A stretch of 64,000 bases of DNA from Podarcis vaucheri. Taxonomy: Eukaryota. This document shows, one piece after another, positions 1 to 18,000 of the stretch. Position 1 is the first letter of the stretch; every line of letters begins with the position of its first letter. The stretch lies in assembly GCA_965113315.1 (NCBI GenBank), contig OZ220365.1, one strand, 5' to 3'. Position numbers: made by a program.

Positions 1-3000
1 GCATTTTGTATCTCATCTAGTTTGATCGTGTGTTGTCCCTATAAAGTAATGATGGATAATACATATATTAAATGCCACAACAAATACAATGGGTGTGTGG
101 CTAGCTCCAAAGCTAAATGGTGACATAATTTTATGTCTTTGAATATGATGGGGCAAAAATCTAATTGAAAGACAACCACAGGCTTTGGAATAGAATTTTT
201 TTTTACACACCAGGAATGGTAAAGATTCAAGGATTTTGAGGATCTAAATGCAAGGTATACGTCTGTTGGAAAATAGCTATTGTGATTTTGAGAGGTTGCC
301 TTAAATAGACATTGTTTCCATCCCAAACATGGGCCTGAAATTGGATTTGAATGTATCCTAATTATCATCCAGAGCCATCCAGAACACTCCCTCTCCTGTT
401 TCTTTAATCCACGGATGGGGAAGCTATGGTTGTCTAACTCCAATCAATTCTTAACATTGGGGCTGATAAGAGTTGGAGTCTCAAGAACATCGGGAAGGGC
501 CACAGATTCCTCATTTCTGCTTTAAGCTACTGTTGACCAATGCATGCAGCTGTTATACTGAATAAATTATTGAGATGCTTATTTACATGTGTTATTTTAT
601 TAGATTTTGTCCAAAGCAGCTATAAAAACGTCTGCTAAAGAACTGTAAATGTAACATACAACACAAGGCAAAGTGCTATACTGTAATAACTAAAACAGTA
701 TAAGAGGACAGATGCAGGCAAACCATTAAAACACGCACCTCTTGACCCTATCCAAAAATATTTTAAGAATAGAGGAAAGATAGCCTTTAAGATGGTTCTG
801 ATACTTTAAGAATAACAGGAAAGCGTTTGTAAACTTTCACAATTGCACACAACTTTAAAAAATATGAAGATCTGTAGAAGAAAATAAATAACATTAATAT
901 TGAACCCCAGTAAACCTTCCAATCTTAAACATCATAATCTTAAACATCATAAACAGTGTTCATGAACCGTGCAATGCTTTACACAAGCCAATCATGAAGC
1001 AGCATCAAACTGAATTATTCCATATTTCCCAATGATCATCCATTCAGGTTCAGTTTTAGTAAGTTGTTCACCTTGCCCAGGTTTCAGCCCAACCTGGATA
1101 TCACATTTTAGCGTTCTTAAGCTACAGAGAGGGGCAGGGTGAAAATTGTTCAAGGCTTGATGGAACGGCACTGTGAATTCCCACTTCCGATCAGCTATCA
1201 ACTTTCTGTAGTTCAAATCACCTTTAAAAATAATTAAATTTGACTTCTGCAATTCACTGTACAAATCAGGAGCCACTTGAGCCATCCTACAATATTCATG
1301 TGGTGAGGTCCAGAACAAGTGATCATAAAAAATCCAAGCACCATTTTTCAAATAGCCCTCCCAGCAGACACCACACCTAGACATCCCCTTGTGATTAGCT
1401 GCCTGCATTTGCTTAATTGTCCAATTCAGGTCACGCCTTGTAGTATCTGAGACATACCATGGGATGCTTTTCCCATGGAAATGAATTTCAGTAGCTAATT
1501 TGGAGGATAACAAGAAGTCGGCCAGTATAAGGTCAGCAGTAAGTTCAAAACCAGCATTATCCAGGACTATGTCAAGTCTAGTAGTCTGCTTATTCATGTT
1601 CTTTTTGTTTATAAGCAGTGACCAAAGCATTTCCATGTGATCCACCAAGAGAAAAGGTTTTAACTCTTCCACAGACAGTAATGGGTCAGACTTCTGAGAA
1701 TTATCTGCCCCAGCTGACATTGACAGGTCACACTTATTACCCCACAGAGAAACCTAAAGAAGGAAAAAGTACACCTTAATCTGTAAGCCAAGTGATCCTT
1801 GCTCTACTATATACCAAGTGCATCTTCGAGGACTGCAGTTGAGGGACTACTGAGAGTTCTGCTTGTTGTAACAGGAGAAAGTAGGTCAGAATTGGAGTAT
1901 TTCTTTTTACTTCCATTGAAACCAATGTGAAAAGGCAGTGGGTTAATTCCCAAGAGGCAAGTATAATATTAATAAAATTTAATAAGAAATGTAAGAAAAA
2001 TGAGAATTAATCCACTTCTTTTGACCTTGAACAGGCTTAGGAAGTAGCAGTTTCTCTGCCAAGACACACTTACTGTTCTGTCAGGTTCCAATCCACTAAG
2101 CCAGGGAACCTCAGGCTCAGGGGGCCAATGTGACCCTCCAGTTCTCCTTCCTCCTTCTAATGTGTTATGTATGAAACACCTGTTAGTGAAAGAACATAAC
2201 TAAACCAATAAATTGGTTTTTATTGAATACTAACAAGTGATGTTGGGACGCAAACCACAGAGCCTAGGACTTGCTGATCAGAAGGTCGGTGGTTCGAATC
2301 CCCACAACGGGGTGAGCTCCCGTTGCTCAGTCCCTGCTCCTGCCAACTGCTCCAGCAGTTAGAAAGCACGTCAGAGTGCAAGTAGATGAATAGGTACCCC
2401 TCCGGCAGGAAAGTAAATGGCATTTCCATGTGCTGCTCTGGTTCGCTAGAAGCGGCATAGTCATGCTGGCCACATGACCCGGAAGCTGTACACCAATGCT
2501 CCCAATAAATCGAGATGAGCTGTACACCAATAAATCGAGATGAGTGCCGCAACCCCAGAGTCAGTCACGACTGGACCTAATGGTCAGGGGTCCCTTTATC
2601 TTTAACAAGTGATGTTACAGAAAAGTTGAGGCCAAAGTGTAATTAATATAGTTTCTGCTTATGCATTTAGCAGTTTTCTGCAGATGGGTTATATAATTAA
2701 TCTCTCAGTATAAAGCAGACTCCTGATTTAGCTAAGAAGGGATGGGGAACCTGTGGCCCTCCCAATGTTTGACTTCTAACTTCCATCATCCCCATCAAAC
2801 ATATGTGCCTTCCTGTAGCCCTATTTCATTTTGGAGAGGCCTTTAAATGTTGTAGAAACTTTCTGAACCTTCTCTCTCACAGTAAAAGCTGTAGCAATAT
2901 TTTTGGCAGCATGCCCTAATCAGGTTTTGGCAAAGGAGAGATCAATACCTATGAATTAATAGTTTGGCAAACTACAAAAACAAAAAGCAAGCTAACGATA

Positions 3001-15000: not shown

Positions 15001-18000
15001 GGTTATCTGTTTAAACAGATGGCAGCAGATTCAGGACAGAAAAGTACTTGGTCACACAAGGAATAATTTATGTAATTCACTGCCAAGAGATGTGATGAGG
15101 GCCACTAGCTGAAAAGGCTTAAATGGAAAATTGAGACAAATACATGGGCCACTAAGGATACTGGCTTTTTAGTTTGTGCTAGCAAGGCTCTTTGTATGTT
15201 CTTATGGAAGCAGAAAAATATTTCCTTAAGCATGCAGAAATAATTACACAAAGTTTGATTTGCTTAAGGTTTTTAAGAGAACAGCATTGAAAGAGAAAGA
15301 ATAAAAGGCAGCAATTTCTTACTTCTCCATGTTCTTCAAAGAATTCATTTCTGTGTCGATGCAGAGTATCAATAACTTTAGTCAGGATTAGAGGCAGCCT
15401 ATCTTTAATTGTATTGTATGCGAAGGATCTATGAAGAACAAAACAATATTGTTTTAGGCTTGTAAATAGCCACTTACATCACCATCAGAATCACCATCAG
15501 GCAACTTTATTAAAGTTAATTTCTACACAGAAGGAGTAAACTGCTGTGTTCAGATATCATGGTAACCCATAATTATGTTGGCTCACAAAGTGAGTCTCAC
15601 CTCCTCCCAAGCTTGCATACTCCTTCCCTCCCTGTTGTAGATAAGACAAGCTTGGAAAGTTTTACTTCCATTTTCAATAAACCAATGCTCATCTTCTTGC
15701 TTGAACTTGACGAACTGGTTAAACTTTGTTTGAAACATGACATATTTAAGATTAACCACAATTTACGGTTGTAAAAAACTGAAATTAAAAGTGAAAGCTT
15801 CCCATCACCGCCTTGTGGCTCTGGAGGAGAAAGAGCAGAGGGAAGGAGCCCAGGTCTATTATTCTTATACACAATAAATTATGGTTTATCATTATGTCTA
15901 AACACAGCCTTTTTCTAAACCTCTCATACCCCTCCACACCACATCTCAATGCAAACACAGTATTTATCACACTGAAACATTGAAGCCATTAAGATTTTGC
16001 CCAACTGATATGCAGTCCTAAGCAATACACTGATTCCATATATGAAAATTAAGCAGAAATATTACTTCCAAGTGTCCAGACTTGCAGGGGGGAAGTTTTG
16101 TGGTCTTAATCTCACACAGTTTACCATGGAAAATAAAGGATGGATTATTGCAGTTACACTTCATCTTCATATGTTCACAGCAACTTCCTTAAACAATGTC
16201 CCAGACCAATAAGAACTTGGTCAAATAAGCTAAATATTCTAATTCATATCTAAAGGATGGTATTTATGACTCTGGGTAACACTTTTAATAATCCTTATCT
16301 TAAAACCAAAATGTCAGTCTTCAGACATTCATTTAATTTGTTGGAAGCCGCCTAGAGTAGCTGGGGTTACCCAGTCAGATGGGCACCATATTATTATTAT
16401 TATTTCTTTACTATTAACAAATAAACAACTTAGTTCTCTTCAAAAAAAGAGGAGGGGGAGACAATGCCTTGTTTCTGATGTCAGTACATCTGAATTATTG
16501 TCTAGAATAGTAAGAAAATGTATGATTTGTTAATCAATGGCAATTCAAGTATTATTGCTGGGTTTCACAGTAGATAAACATATTTTCAAAACTGGTTTTC
16601 ATAGAATTGTACAGTTGGAAGGGACCACAAGGATCATCTTGACACCCCCCTCCAAGCCCTTGCACTGCCTTCCCAAATCAAAGTAAGGAGGCGCTTAGCT
16701 TTGGGAAGGAGGCATGAGGGCTCTGACAGGGTCCTAGAGCTCTCACGCCTCATTCCCAAAGCCTAGTTAGCACTTCCAAGCTTTGAGGAGGCAGCAGGGC
16801 TCTAGGACCCTGCCAGAAGGTTATGGTGTGTGTCAAATTTTGGCCTCACTAACCCCCCCCCAGCGCCCCACCTCCCATGACAAGCAGCATGCAGCCCATA
16901 GGTTCTGTGTCAAATAAAACTGCATGGTTAAAATAAAATGTAATACGCGAGAATACAAATATATTGATTAAATAGTCCTCTGTCAAAGACATTGCTCAAA
17001 TCATGATTTGGACATCTCAAACTTAGCTTCACATGCGCTCTGTTCCTCTGACTTAACTTCCTGGTTTTGCCTCAAGCCTGAATGGGAAACTCACTTCTAA
17101 TTCCGGCTCAGAAACATGTATGGTTTATGCTTTGTTGCGACGTAATAGAAAACTTGGTTTTGCAAACCACCGAGTGATTTGCAGGAGGAGCAGGGAAGAC
17201 GTGAATACTTGCAGCACGAGGGTTGGAGCGGACCCAACCACCCACTGACAGCCGAAAAAGGCCACTGTGTTCCTGGCTTCTATTGCGAAACCTCCCTTTC
17301 CCAAACAGAAGCGGTTCAAAGTGCGGGGAACAGACACCCTTCTGAGACCGCAAATGCCACACTCGCAAATAATTCGCGGAGGCAGCTCCGAATCTGGAAG
17401 CCGGCTTTCCGTGCAAAGCGAACTGGAGCTCGGAGGAAGAGCAGAAATGGAAAACAGCGGCTCACTGGAGTGCCGCGTTTTCAGCCGCCCCGGCTCCCCG
17501 AGCGAGGAGGGGAAGAGACCCGGACCCTTGTCCCCTGGTACTCTACAGCTCCAGCCTCCCCGCGAATGGCCGACGGTTCACCCCTCGCCCACCCGTTTCT
17601 CAGAGCCCCCGACGAAGCGGCGGAGACGGGACGCACCCCTTGAACTTGCCCGCGAGCTGAGGCGGCAGCGTTGCCGTCGGCGCCGCCATTTTGCTCATCG
17701 TAGCGCCGCCCGGCGCAGCTGCGCGCTTTCCCAAGCAACGCCTGATCCCATTGGTCGGCGGCTGAGCTCCCTCGCTCAACGGGCTTAGGGAGGAGGGGCG
17801 CTGAAGCAAACCAGCCCCTTCGGTAAAGGAGGGCGGGCGGAGGGATACATAGCCAAACGAAACGCGAGGCCTTGCGGGTAATCGCCTCCTCAGGGGGAGG
17901 CGGCGACCTTCATCGGCGCTCTTGGGCGGGGAATATGACGTCGCGCGTCAACCGCACAGACGGAGGGGGCGGGGCTGACTCTGTGGCTCCGCCGGCCCTC

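What the first reader, a model, noticed from the sequence alone, without database searches (positions are those of the whole stretch)
992..17689. Two intact tandem ARMT1/DCPH1 paralogs where vertebrates normally have one
Seen: two complete 5-exon genes on the minus strand, offset by about 9-10 kb. Exons 2-5 have identical sizes (106/236/166/762 nt), frames are open, splice sites are canonical, and each copy has its own CpG island and an AATAAA about 390-395 nt after the stop. All DUF89-III motifs (DN, YVSD, GDLNYR, RTLK) are intact in both. Known: in the human AKAP12-ZBTB2-RMND1-ARMT1 block ARMT1 is single-copy. Inference: an old, lineage-specific, retained duplication of a metabolite-damage-control phosphatase. 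More copies could lie left of the window.
Basis: partly seen in the sequence, partly recalled or inferred. Interest (0 to 1): 0.75.

Follow-up and report, generated by a model that had tools for sequence, protein, structure and literature searches.

The report
Old tandem ARMT1 pair, lizard
A lacertid lizard carries two intact side-by-side copies of the metabolite-repair phosphatase gene ARMT1 that arose before lacertids and worm lizards split, and whose catalytic last exon is kept nearly identical by copying between the genes while the front exons have diverged.

Summary
Two 5-exon ARMT1 genes lie on the minus strand: copy A at 601-8127 and copy B at 9854-17844. Exons 2-5 have identical sizes, and all splice sites, CpG islands, poly(A) signals and catalytic residues are intact.

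The window comes from a lacertid lizard. Public annotation already holds both genes, as ARMT1 and ARMT1-like, in Podarcis, Zootoca and the amphisbaenian Rhineura; Lacerta has a B-type entry only.

Exons 1-4 place copy A with Rhineura ARMT1-like (100/98 support). The duplication therefore predates the lacertid-amphisbaenian split, about 150 My on one published scale.

Exon 5 tells the opposite story. Paralogs group by lineage (AU p=7.5e-56; quartet sites 0 for orthology against 20 for concerted evolution). Synonymous divergence falls from about 1.2 in exon 4 to 0.09 in exon 5, and identity collapses right after the stop codon.

So this is an old retained tandem duplicate with gene conversion restricted to the catalytic exon. 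It is not an assembly artefact or a pseudogene. Copy B sits head-to-head with RMND1, the ancestral position, and copy A is the more derived copy.

Marsupials also have two ARMT1 genes. Interest is moderate.

The parts
601..8127 (-). Copy A (ARMT1-like type, 441 codons by exon arithmetic). The span runs from the AATAAA at 601 to the upstream end of promoter homology at 8127.
   Evidence: Its exons match the annotated 441-aa ARMT1-like proteins of Podarcis and Zootoca (35/35, 76/78 and 55/55 against P. raffonei).
992..1753 (-). Copy A exon 5 CDS (253 codons plus TGA). It holds the catalytic core and lid: Asp9, Asp65, Asn66, Asp103, Arg183 and RTLK 213-216 in exon-5 numbering.
   Evidence: residue roles from PMC9062747.
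3376..3541 (-). Copy A exon 4 (166 nt).
   Evidence: dS against B exon 4 is 1.20. Quartet sites 6:0:0 for orthology.
5161..5396 (-). Copy A exon 3 (236 nt).
   Evidence: Pfam PF01937 at 5.7e-06; dS 0.13 and dN/dS 0.74.
6595..6700 (-). Copy A exon 2 (106 nt).
   Evidence: Quartet sites 6:0:0 for orthology. A is derived at 7 of 8 differing sites.
7910..7965 (-). Copy A exon 1 CDS (56 nt, ATG at 7965, donor CAAGGG|GTGCGT).
7751..8400 (.). CpG island over copy A's exon 1 and promoter. Positions 7851-8127 are homologous to 17582-17844 at 77-79% identity.
8128..9853 (.). Spacer between copy A's promoter homology and copy B's poly(A) signal. No similarity to the region upstream of B was detected.
   Evidence: word-7 BLASTN found nothing beyond 8127/17844.
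9854..17844 (-). Copy B (ARMT1 type). It has 440 codons from the ATG at 17689, or 443 from the ATG at 17698 that annotated B-type proteins use.
10244..11005 (-). Copy B exon 5 CDS. It is 737/759 nt identical to A's, with only 1 difference in the last 332 nt.
12042..12207 (-). Copy B exon 4.
14493..14728 (-). Copy B exon 3.
15323..15428 (-). Copy B exon 2.
17637..17698 (-). Copy B exon 1 CDS (ATG at 17689 or 17698).
17301..18350 (.). CpG island shared head-to-head by copy B and RMND1.
19514..20047 (+). First coding exon of RMND1. It marks copy B as the copy in the ancestral position.
   Evidence: 97% identity to P. muralis RMND1, E=4.3e-100.

Best explanation
The locus holds an ancient tandem duplicate of the DUF89 subfamily III damage-control phosphatase gene ARMT1.

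Shown:
- One segment of about 8 kb, carrying the promoter, 5 exons and the 3'UTR, was duplicated head-to-tail next to RMND1 before lacertid lizards and amphisbaenians diverged.
- Both copies stayed intact.
- Copy B keeps the ancestral RMND1-adjacent position and the more conservative sequence in exons 2 and 3.
- Copy A is the more derived copy in its N-terminal exons.
- The gene has a mosaic history. Exons 2 and 4 have diverged independently since the duplication. Exon 5, which encodes the lid Asp and all metal, nucleophile and phosphate-contact residues, has been repeatedly homogenised between the two genes, separately in the lacertid and Rhineura lineages and still within Lacertidae.

Inferred mechanism:
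- Homogenisation is by interlocus (non-allelic) gene conversion. Tracts are confined to the 762-nt exon because the flanking intron and 3'UTR are too diverged, and too rich in indels, to support heteroduplex.
- Both proteins are active Co/Ni-type phosphatases that work through an aspartyl-phosphate intermediate.
- They differ, if at all, in substrate choice or regulation, through the N-terminal helical region and the first ~26 residues of the lid segment. These are the only parts that carry fixed A-versus-B differences.
For: Anatomy.

Not an artefact: only exon blocks align, the 3'UTRs are 58% identical, and intron lengths are 1622 against 1036, 1619 against 2285, 1198 against 594 and 1209 against 2208 nt.

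Lineage: top hits are ARMT1-like of Podarcis raffonei (98%) and ARMT1 of P. muralis (96%), then tegu at 83%. Both types are named in P. muralis, P. raffonei, P. lilfordi, Zootoca and Rhineura; for Lacerta agilis only a B-type entry was listed.

Orthology of exons 2-4:
- Per-exon BLASTP.
- N-terminal tree of 24 database proteins: lacertid A-type plus Rhineura ARMT1-like form a clade at 100/98.
- AU tests reject the Rhineura pair as a clade (p=0.015) and lacertid A+B as a clade (p=0.007).
- Quartet sites are 6:0:0 in exon 2 and 5-8:0:0 in exon 4, in 5 of 5 species sets.

Concerted exon 5:
- In the tree of 26 rows, the two Rhineura genes are sisters (97/93) and all 11 lacertid rows form one clade (100/99). 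AU rejects the orthology grouping at p=7.5e-56.
- Quartet sites are 0-1 for orthology against 19-21 for concerted evolution, with 0 for the third pattern.
- Paralog identity is 239-247/253 in exon 5 against 137-151/188 in the N-terminal region, in all 5 species pairs.
- dS is 1.20 (exon 4), 0.33 (exon 2), 0.13 (exon 3) and 0.088 (exon 5). Fisher test for exon 4 against exon 5 gives p=8e-10.
- Only 1 of 22 differences lies in the last 332 nt (binomial p=5.8e-5). Synonymous-only codons are 12 against 1 (p=0.008).
- Identity is 40/40 up to the stop codon and 20/40 just after it.
- Conversion continued within Lacertidae: Zootoca A and B share states at 129, 130 and 137.

Function intact:
- Human ARMT1 structures 6UMQ and 6UMR match at 1e-119 to 1e-122.
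- The lid Asp, nucleophile Asp, Asn, second Asp, Arg and RTxK Lys align and are identical in A and B.
- dN/dS is 0.16-0.36 in exons 2, 4 and 5.

Ancestral position: RMND1 lies head-to-head with B.

Polarity: A is derived at 7:1 in exon 2 and 10:4 in exon 3. Six A-specific residues are fixed at sites invariant in 13/13 outgroups.

Age: Amphisbaenia is sister to Lacertidae and Rhineuridae is the basal amphisbaenian branch (passages of PMC3682911 and PMC11312734). Crown Amphisbaenia is dated 149 Mya and Lacertoidea 167 Mya (Table 2 passage of PMC11312734).
Against: - Exon 3 is uninformative (quartets 1-2:1:0). Its dN/dS of 0.74 on 6 synonymous and 17 non-synonymous changes could mean relaxed constraint.
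- The N-terminal AU rejections are moderate (p=0.015 and 0.007), and their groups were named after trees had been seen.
- Whether the tegu gene is a B orthologue, meaning an older duplication with loss or a missed annotation, is unresolved (AU p=0.50).
- No nucleotide sequence of other species was available, so conversion outside the window rests on protein data only.
- The GC3 rise in exons 3 and 5 (0.40-0.43 against 0.29-0.38) is weak.
- Expression of either copy was not tested here; the XP models are predictions.
- The tandem order in Rhineura was not checked, only that both genes lie on the same 211.9-Mb contig.
- NCBI labels the two Podarcis proteins as isoforms X12 and X13 of one gene, so read-through or chimeric transcripts are not excluded.
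Confidence: 0.85

Rival explanations
1. False duplication in the assembly: an uncollapsed haplotype or a mis-join gives two images of one gene.
For: Exon 5 is 97% identical between the copies, and its last 332 nt differ at a single site.
Against: - Introns are unalignable apart from exon-adjacent stretches and differ up to twofold in length.
- The 3'UTRs are 58% identical.
- Exon 4 is 75% identical with dS 1.2.
- Each copy matches a different annotated protein in three Podarcis species, Zootoca and Rhineura.
Confidence: 0.01
2. Two independent, parallel duplications in lacertids and in Rhineura. On this view exon 5 shows the true lineage-wise history and exons 2 and 4 converged.
For: The exon-5 tree groups paralogs by lineage. 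Exon 3 gives no orthology signal.
Against: - This needs convergence at 12 fixed A-versus-B sites shared by lacertids and Rhineura, six of them at positions invariant in 13/13 outgroups.
- The N-terminal clade has 100/98 support, and the AU tests give p=0.015 and 0.007.
- Within the window, dS differs 14-fold between exon 4 and exon 5 of the same gene pair, which a single young duplication cannot give.
Confidence: 0.05
3. There is no gene conversion. Exon 5 is simply under far stronger purifying selection, including at silent sites, than exons 2-4.
For: Exon 5 holds all catalytic residues. Its dN/dS is low at 0.17.
Against: - Exon 5 does change between lineages: 26-29 amino-acid differences between lacertid and Rhineura orthologues and 40 against tegu.
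- At 19-21 of these sites both paralogs of a lineage share the same state, and at 0-1 sites they follow orthology.
- AU rejects orthology at p=7.5e-56.
- Silent-site identity ends exactly at the stop codon.
Confidence: 0.04
4. One copy, most likely the derived copy A, is a decaying or non-functional duplicate.
For: - A carries more derived changes in exons 2 and 3.
- Exon 3 has dN/dS of 0.74.
- Conversion from B could mask decay in exon 5.
Against: - A has no stop, frameshift or broken splice site and has its own CpG island and poly(A) signal.
- A-type ORFs are intact in P. raffonei, P. muralis, P. lilfordi, Zootoca and Rhineura, which means retention across a split dated at about 150 My or more.
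- A-specific residues are themselves conserved across that clade.
- dN/dS is 0.36 in exon 2 and 0.16 in exon 4.
Confidence: 0.05

Closest known systems
Human ARMT1 (C6orf211), a damage-control phosphatase of DUF89 subfamily III; PDB 6UMQ and 6UMR
   Same: Exon 5 of both copies aligns end to end (residues 187-439 of the chain) at E=1e-119 to 1e-122. The Asp-Asn, VSD, GDLNYRK and RTLK segments are conserved. The gene sits next to RMND1. The human gene order is recalled, not tested here.
   Different: There are two genes instead of one. Copy A carries derived residues at six N-terminal sites that are invariant in 13/13 non-lacertoid outgroups.
Fission-yeast Duf89 and Duf8901, two subfamily III paralogs (PMC9062747; PDB 7T7N, 7T7K)
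   Same: Both are cases of two DUF89-III paralogs in one genome, with the same catalytic set: nucleophile Asp248, Asn249, Asp286, lid Asp195, Arg and Lys401. All map onto both lizard copies. In yeast the paralogs behave differently in vivo, since only the duf89 deletion derepresses pho1 (abstract and discussion passages). This is a precedent for divergent roles.
   Different: [quoted passage not shown] The lizard pair is tandem, and its catalytic exon is 96% identical in protein.
ARMT1 and ARMT1-like gene models of Podarcis, Zootoca and Rhineura (NCBI, UniProt); Lacerta agilis has a B-type model only
   Same: These are orthologues of the two window genes. This locus is therefore already in public annotation.
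   Different: None is identical to the window over all exons. In P. muralis and P. raffonei the two are labelled isoforms X12 and X13 of one gene. No paper describing the pair was found.
Marsupial ARMT1-like pairs (Dromiciops, Monodelphis, Phascolarctos)
   Same: A second, old ARMT1 paralog is retained on the same chromosome-sized contig.
   Different: It is an independent event within marsupials (quick tree). The paralogs are 60-80% identical over their whole length, and I did not test them for exon-5 homogenisation.
Exon-restricted interlocus gene conversion in tandem duplicates (a textbook pattern in, for example, globin genes; recalled, not from a call)
   Same: Coding blocks are homogenised between old tandem paralogs while introns and flanks diverge, and phylogenies disagree along the gene.
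   Different: Here the tract coincides with the catalytic exon of a metabolite-repair enzyme. The pattern has recurred in two lineages that separated at about 150 My or more.

Membership tests
DUF89 subfamily III damage-control phosphatase (ARMT1 type) | Match to Pfam PF01937 above the gathering score | tested here: met
   Exon 5 scores 225.5 and 231.3 bits against a cut-off of 25. Exon 3 scores 26.2 and 25.2 bits. Exons 2 and 4 alone gave no hit.
DUF89 subfamily III damage-control phosphatase (ARMT1 type) | Metal-binding and nucleophile triad Asp-Asn...Asp, plus the lid Asp | tested here: met
   Exon-5 positions Asp65, Asn66, Asp103 and Asp9 align to Duf8901 Asp248, Asn249, Asp286 and Asp195, and to the human residue mutated in 6UMR. 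They are identical in A and B.
DUF89 subfamily III damage-control phosphatase (ARMT1 type) | RTxK motif about 40-50 residues from the C-terminus; phosphate-contact Arg and Lys | tested here: met
   RTLK lies at exon-5 positions 213-216, so the Lys is 37 residues from the end. Arg183 lies in GDLNYRK. Both copies have these (definition from PMC9062747).
DUF89 subfamily III damage-control phosphatase (ARMT1 type) | Size of about 380-480 residues | tested here: met
   By exon arithmetic only: 56+106+236+166+762 nt gives 441 codons plus stop for A. For B, 53 or 62 nt in exon 1 gives 440 or 443. The joined protein was not built.
DUF89 subfamily III damage-control phosphatase (ARMT1 type) | Co/Ni-dependent phosphatase activity | not testable with these tools
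   This needs recombinant enzyme assays.
Vertebrate ARMT1 locus (positional orthology) | Head-to-head neighbour RMND1, then ZBTB2 and AKAP12 | tested here: inconclusive
   RMND1 is confirmed next to copy B. A C2H2 zinc-finger ORF at 48530-49918 fits ZBTB2 but is not named by any search. The 1159-aa acidic ORF at 60520-63999 got no Pfam or atlas hit.
Concerted evolution by interlocus gene conversion | Different segments of the same gene pair give conflicting, well-supported trees | tested here: met
   The N-terminal region supports the A plus Rhineura-like clade at 100/98. The exon-5 region groups paralogs by lineage at 97/93 and 100/99, with AU p=7.5e-56. The reciprocal AU tests give p=0.015 and 0.007.
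Concerted evolution by interlocus gene conversion | A local drop of synonymous divergence with defined tract edges | tested here: met
   dS is 1.20 in exon 4 and 0.088 in exon 5 (Fisher p=8e-10). Only 1 of 22 differences lies in the last 332 nt. Identity steps from 40/40 to 20/40 at the stop codon.
Concerted evolution by interlocus gene conversion | Direct observation of conversion tracts (population or pedigree data, nucleotide data from several species) | not testable with these tools
Assembly false duplication | Near-identity across the whole unit, including introns | tested here: not met
Unprocessed pseudogene | Disabling mutations or loss of splice, promoter or poly(A) signals | tested here: not met
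   orthologues are intact in at least 5 species.

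The most novel reading that the evidence does not exclude
The pair may be a modular enzyme duo. Gene conversion, possibly favoured by selection, keeps one shared catalytic core (exon 5) in both genes for about 150 My or more. Meanwhile the N-terminal helical exons and the start of the lid have diverged and then been conserved. Copy A has six derived residues at sites invariant in the 13 non-lacertoid outgroups sampled (squamates to monotreme). 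This would give lacertids and worm lizards a second damage-control phosphatase with a new substrate range or regulation. A bolder version is that in-phase read-through splicing from B exons into A exons yields chimeric isoforms, which could explain why NCBI files both proteins under one gene.
Probability: 0.25. Interest if true: 0.55.

Novelty: new member of a known kind. Interest (0 to 1): 0.4.

Why it matters
ARMT1 is a little-understood metabolite-repair phosphatase whose physiological substrates are still unsettled.

A natural pair that shares an almost identical catalytic exon but differs in the N-terminal region and lid start amounts to a domain-swap experiment done by evolution. Comparing the substrate profiles of A and B could show which part of a DUF89-III enzyme sets specificity.

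For genome work the case has two practical lessons:
- Exon-5 reads will multi-map, and exon-5 trees will mislead about the age of the duplication.
- Current annotation merges or mislabels the two genes as isoforms.

As an evolutionary case, it is a clean example of long-lasting, exon-limited concerted evolution that arose in parallel in two lineages.

Tried and rejected
I dropped it and found the boundaries from coordinates.
Every search and comparison of window sequence was by single exon, and totals across exons are sums of counts only.
- Pfam gave nothing for exons 2 and 4 alone, for the RMND1 exon, for the 1159-aa acidic ORF or for ORF 39-440.
- The protein atlas gave no usable hit for the RMND1 exon or the acidic ORF, so AKAP12 stays unconfirmed.
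- The 'longer' homology search found no fused or double-domain lacertid form: 0 of the 120 listed were lacertid. So the reason for NCBI's X1-X13 isoform numbering stays open.
- Rfam found no RNA family in the window.
- Tandem Repeats Finder found only two trivial arrays.
- The timing of the duplication relative to the teiid split could not be resolved (AU p=0.50).
- The GC3 test for biased conversion was weak.
- Literature: four searches found no paper on an ARMT1 duplication in reptiles. I saw listings and abstract starts only. Of the 31 papers holding ARMT1 and 'duplicat', 25 were listed. Supplements were closed.
- I did not run structure or complex prediction, because model coordinates could not be used to map residues.

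Full report
**1. Observation**

The window has no N. Self-alignment of 1-9500 against 9501-22000 finds five exon blocks, offset by 8.7-9.7 kb, plus two short non-coding blocks in the 3'UTR and intron 2.

Scanning by coordinates gives two minus-strand genes with the same structure:
- Copy A: exon 1 CDS 7910-7965, exon 2 6595-6700, exon 3 5161-5396, exon 4 3376-3541, exon 5 CDS 992-1753.
- Copy B: exon 1 CDS 17637-17689, exon 2 15323-15428, exon 3 14493-14728, exon 4 12042-12207, exon 5 CDS 10244-11005.

Exons 2-5 are 106, 236, 166 and 762 nt in both copies. Every acceptor is AG, every donor is GT, and phases agree.

AATAAA lies 391 nt (A) and 390 nt (B) after the stop. CpG islands cover both first exons, at 7751-8400 and 17301-18350.

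Pfam PF01937 matches exon 5 at 1e-66 and 2e-68 and exon 3 just above the cut-off. Exons 2 and 4 are too short to score. TBLASTN of the annotated A-type and B-type proteins finds these ten exons and nothing else in the 64 kb.

I did not build or search the joined five-exon protein. All searches of window sequence were exon by exon, and protein lengths (441 for A; 440 or 443 for B) come from adding exon sizes.

**2. Not an artefact and not a pseudogene**

The 3'UTRs are 58% identical in global alignment. Intron lengths are 1622/1036, 1619/2285, 1198/594 and 1209/2208 nt, and introns align only near exons. Exon 4 is 75% identical. A collapsed-haplotype error would be near-identical throughout.

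Neither copy has a stop, a frameshift or a lost signal. Nei-Gojobori estimates per exon give dN/dS of 0.36 (exon 2), 0.74 (exon 3, from only 6 synonymous changes), 0.16 (exon 4) and 0.17 (exon 5).

**3. Whose genome, and is the pair known?**

The exon-5 peptide of A finds ARMT1-like of Podarcis raffonei (98%) and ARMT1 of P. muralis (96%). The tegu Salvator follows at 83% and other squamates at 77-81%.

The two 90% clusters contain named entries from P. raffonei, P. muralis, P. lilfordi, Zootoca vivipara, Lacerta agilis (a B-type entry only) and the amphisbaenian Rhineura floridana.

Per-exon BLASTP shows two things:
- Copy A is the 441-aa ARMT1-like type: 35/35, 76/78 and 55/55 against P. raffonei for exons 2-4.
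- Copy B is the 443-aa ARMT1 type: 35/35, 78/78 and 51/55 against P. muralis.

No listed species matches the window in all exons, so it is a lacertid that I did not identify further. The pair is therefore already in public annotation. In two Podarcis species the proteins are labelled isoforms X12 and X13 of one gene.

Ten further lepidosaur clusters hold only ARMT1 isoforms. They cover snakes, iguanians, anguimorphs, skinks, geckos, a cordylid and tuatara.

Four literature searches found no paper on an ARMT1 duplication in reptiles. I saw listings and abstract starts only, and supplements were closed.

**4. Age**

I built a tree of the exon 1-4 region from 24 database proteins:
- 11 of the 23 members of the two lacertid/Rhineura clusters. 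The 12 dropped were partial isoforms, older record versions and unnamed fragments.
- 7 other squamates.
- 6 outgroups.

Lacertid A-type and Rhineura ARMT1-like form a clade with 100/98 support, and lacertid B-type forms a clade at 99/98. AU tests on this region reject the two Rhineura genes as a clade (p=0.015) and all lacertid genes as a clade (p=0.007).

The duplication therefore predates the lacertid-amphisbaenian split. Rhineuridae is the earliest amphisbaenian branch, and Amphisbaenia is sister to Lacertidae (passages of PMC3682911 and PMC11312734). One mitogenome dating gives crown Amphisbaenia 149 Mya and Lacertoidea 167 Mya (Table 2 passage). Whether the event precedes the teiid split is unresolved (AU p=0.50).

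**5. The mosaic**

Synonymous divergence between A and B is 1.20 in exon 4, 0.33 in exon 2, 0.13 in exon 3 and 0.088 in exon 5. The Fisher test gives p=8e-10 for exon 4 against exon 5 and p=1.4e-5 for exon 4 against exon 3.

Within exon 5, 21 of the 22 differences lie in the first 427 nt (binomial p=5.8e-5). Synonymous-only codons number 12 in the first 143 codons and 1 in the last 110 (p=0.008). Identity is 40/40 in the last 40 coding bases and 20/40, with indels, just after the stop. On the 5' side it decays over about 60 nt of intron 4.

The exon-5 tree has 26 rows, including both window exons. It groups the two Rhineura genes together (97/93) and all 11 lacertid sequences together (100/99). 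Holding A-type with Rhineura ARMT1-like costs 78.8 log-likelihood units (AU p=7.5e-56). That group was named and before this tree was seen.

Quartet counts in five species sets are as follows:

| Exon | Orthology | Concerted | Third pattern |
|---|---|---|---|
| 2 | 6 | 0 | 0 |
| 4 | 5-8 | 0 | 0 |
| 5 | 0-1 | 19-21 | 0 |
| 3 | 1-2 | 1 | 0 |

Every species with both genes shows 73-79% identity in the N-terminal region and 94-98% in exon 5.

Within Lacertidae, three positions (12, 18, 26) always separate A from B. Other states are shared by the two paralogs of one species only, for example Zootoca at 129, 130 and 137.

The simplest reading is repeated interlocus gene conversion confined to exon 5, in both lineages and still active. 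Exon 3 may have been converted earlier, but the data do not decide this.

**6. Function**

Exon 5 of both copies aligns over its whole length to human ARMT1 (6UMQ, 6UMR), fission-yeast Duf89 and Duf8901, and budding-yeast YMR027W.

Residue roles come from PMC9062747 (passages). In exon-5 numbering, the lid Asp is 9, the nucleophile Asp is 65, and the others are Asn66, Asp103, Arg183 and Lys216 of RTLK. All are present and identical in A and B.

The enzymatic mechanism is inferred from homology and was not tested: a Co/Ni-dependent phosphatase acting through an aspartyl-phosphate intermediate, with a mobile three-helix lid.

Fixed differences between the A clade and the B clade across lacertids plus Rhineura number 12 in the N-terminal region. 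Six are A-derived at sites invariant in 13/13 outgroups, and three are B-derived. A is derived at 7:1 in exon 2 and 10:4 in exon 3.

The fission-yeast precedent, where two DUF89-III paralogs give different deletion phenotypes, makes divergent substrate choice plausible but not shown.

**7. Context**

The ORF at 19514-20047 (+) is RMND1, at 97% identity to P. muralis. It shares the 17.3-18.35 kb CpG island with copy B, so B holds the ancestral position and A is the downstream daughter.

Promoter homology between the copies ends at 8127/17844. A C2H2 zinc-finger ORF at 48530-49918 fits ZBTB2. The large acidic ORF at 60520-63999 stayed unnamed.

CCDC170-ARMT1 fused models in birds and snakes show the usual neighbour on the other side. 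Only 600 nt lie beyond A's poly(A) signal, so more copies to the left cannot be judged. The extra P. lilfordi entry is a B isoform.

**8. Comparison and verdict**

Both genes pass every sequence-level test for DUF89 subfamily III. The pair is a retained tandem duplicate with exon-limited concerted evolution, which is a known kind of history.

It is not unique among vertebrates. Marsupials have two old ARMT1 groups (quick tree).

The parts not in print, as far as my searches reach, are the age of the pair (at or before the lacertid-amphisbaenian split) and the parallel homogenisation of the catalytic exon. Interest is moderate at 0.4.

Noticed in passing
window 6143-6273 and 15013-15148 (intron 2 of A and B): This intronic block is conserved between the paralogs (82% over 66 nt, 72% over 138 nt) although the rest of the intron is unalignable. 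It has no Rfam match. It could be a splicing or regulatory element or an alternative exon.
   Followed up: partly
window 810-861 and 10082-10133 (3'UTRs): A 52-nt block is 86.5% identical inside 3'UTRs that are otherwise about 58% identical. The stop-to-AATAAA distances are almost the same (391 and 390 nt).
   Followed up: partly
Annotated 443-aa B-type proteins start there. Copy A reads Val at that place.
   Followed up: yes
window 19514-20047 (+) and CpG island 17301-18350: The first coding exon of RMND1 lies head-to-head with copy B and shares one CpG island with it.
   Followed up: yes
window 48530-49918 (+); CpG island 43501-45300: A 462-aa open frame with C2H2 zinc fingers, probably the main ZBTB2 exon, lies downstream of a 1.8-kb island of 69% GC. 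No call named it.
   Followed up: partly
window 60520-63999 (-): This 1159-aa, very acidic open frame runs off the window's right edge. It has no Pfam family and no atlas hit. By recalled synteny it would be AKAP12.
   Followed up: partly
database proteins P0025/P0038, P0105/P0108, P0026/P0106: Marsupials (Dromiciops, Monodelphis, Phascolarctos) have two ARMT1-like genes on one chromosome-sized contig. These fall into two old paralog groups, with 60-80% identity within a species.
   Followed up: partly
database proteins P0149, P0152, P0155, P0264, P0274: Several bird and snake gene models fuse CCDC170 with ARMT1 (717-1194 aa). These are probably read-through or merged predictions.
   Followed up: no
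database clusters: NCBI files the A-type and B-type proteins of P. muralis and P. raffonei as isoforms X13 and X12 of a single gene. Rhineura ARMT1-like isoforms X2 and X3 fall in the B-type 90% cluster. This suggests merged loci or chimeric transcripts.
   Followed up: partly
window 4101-4300 (intron 3 of copy A); 21451-21700: Two small CpG-rich patches (observed/expected 1.11 and 0.85) lie outside the two promoters.
   Followed up: no
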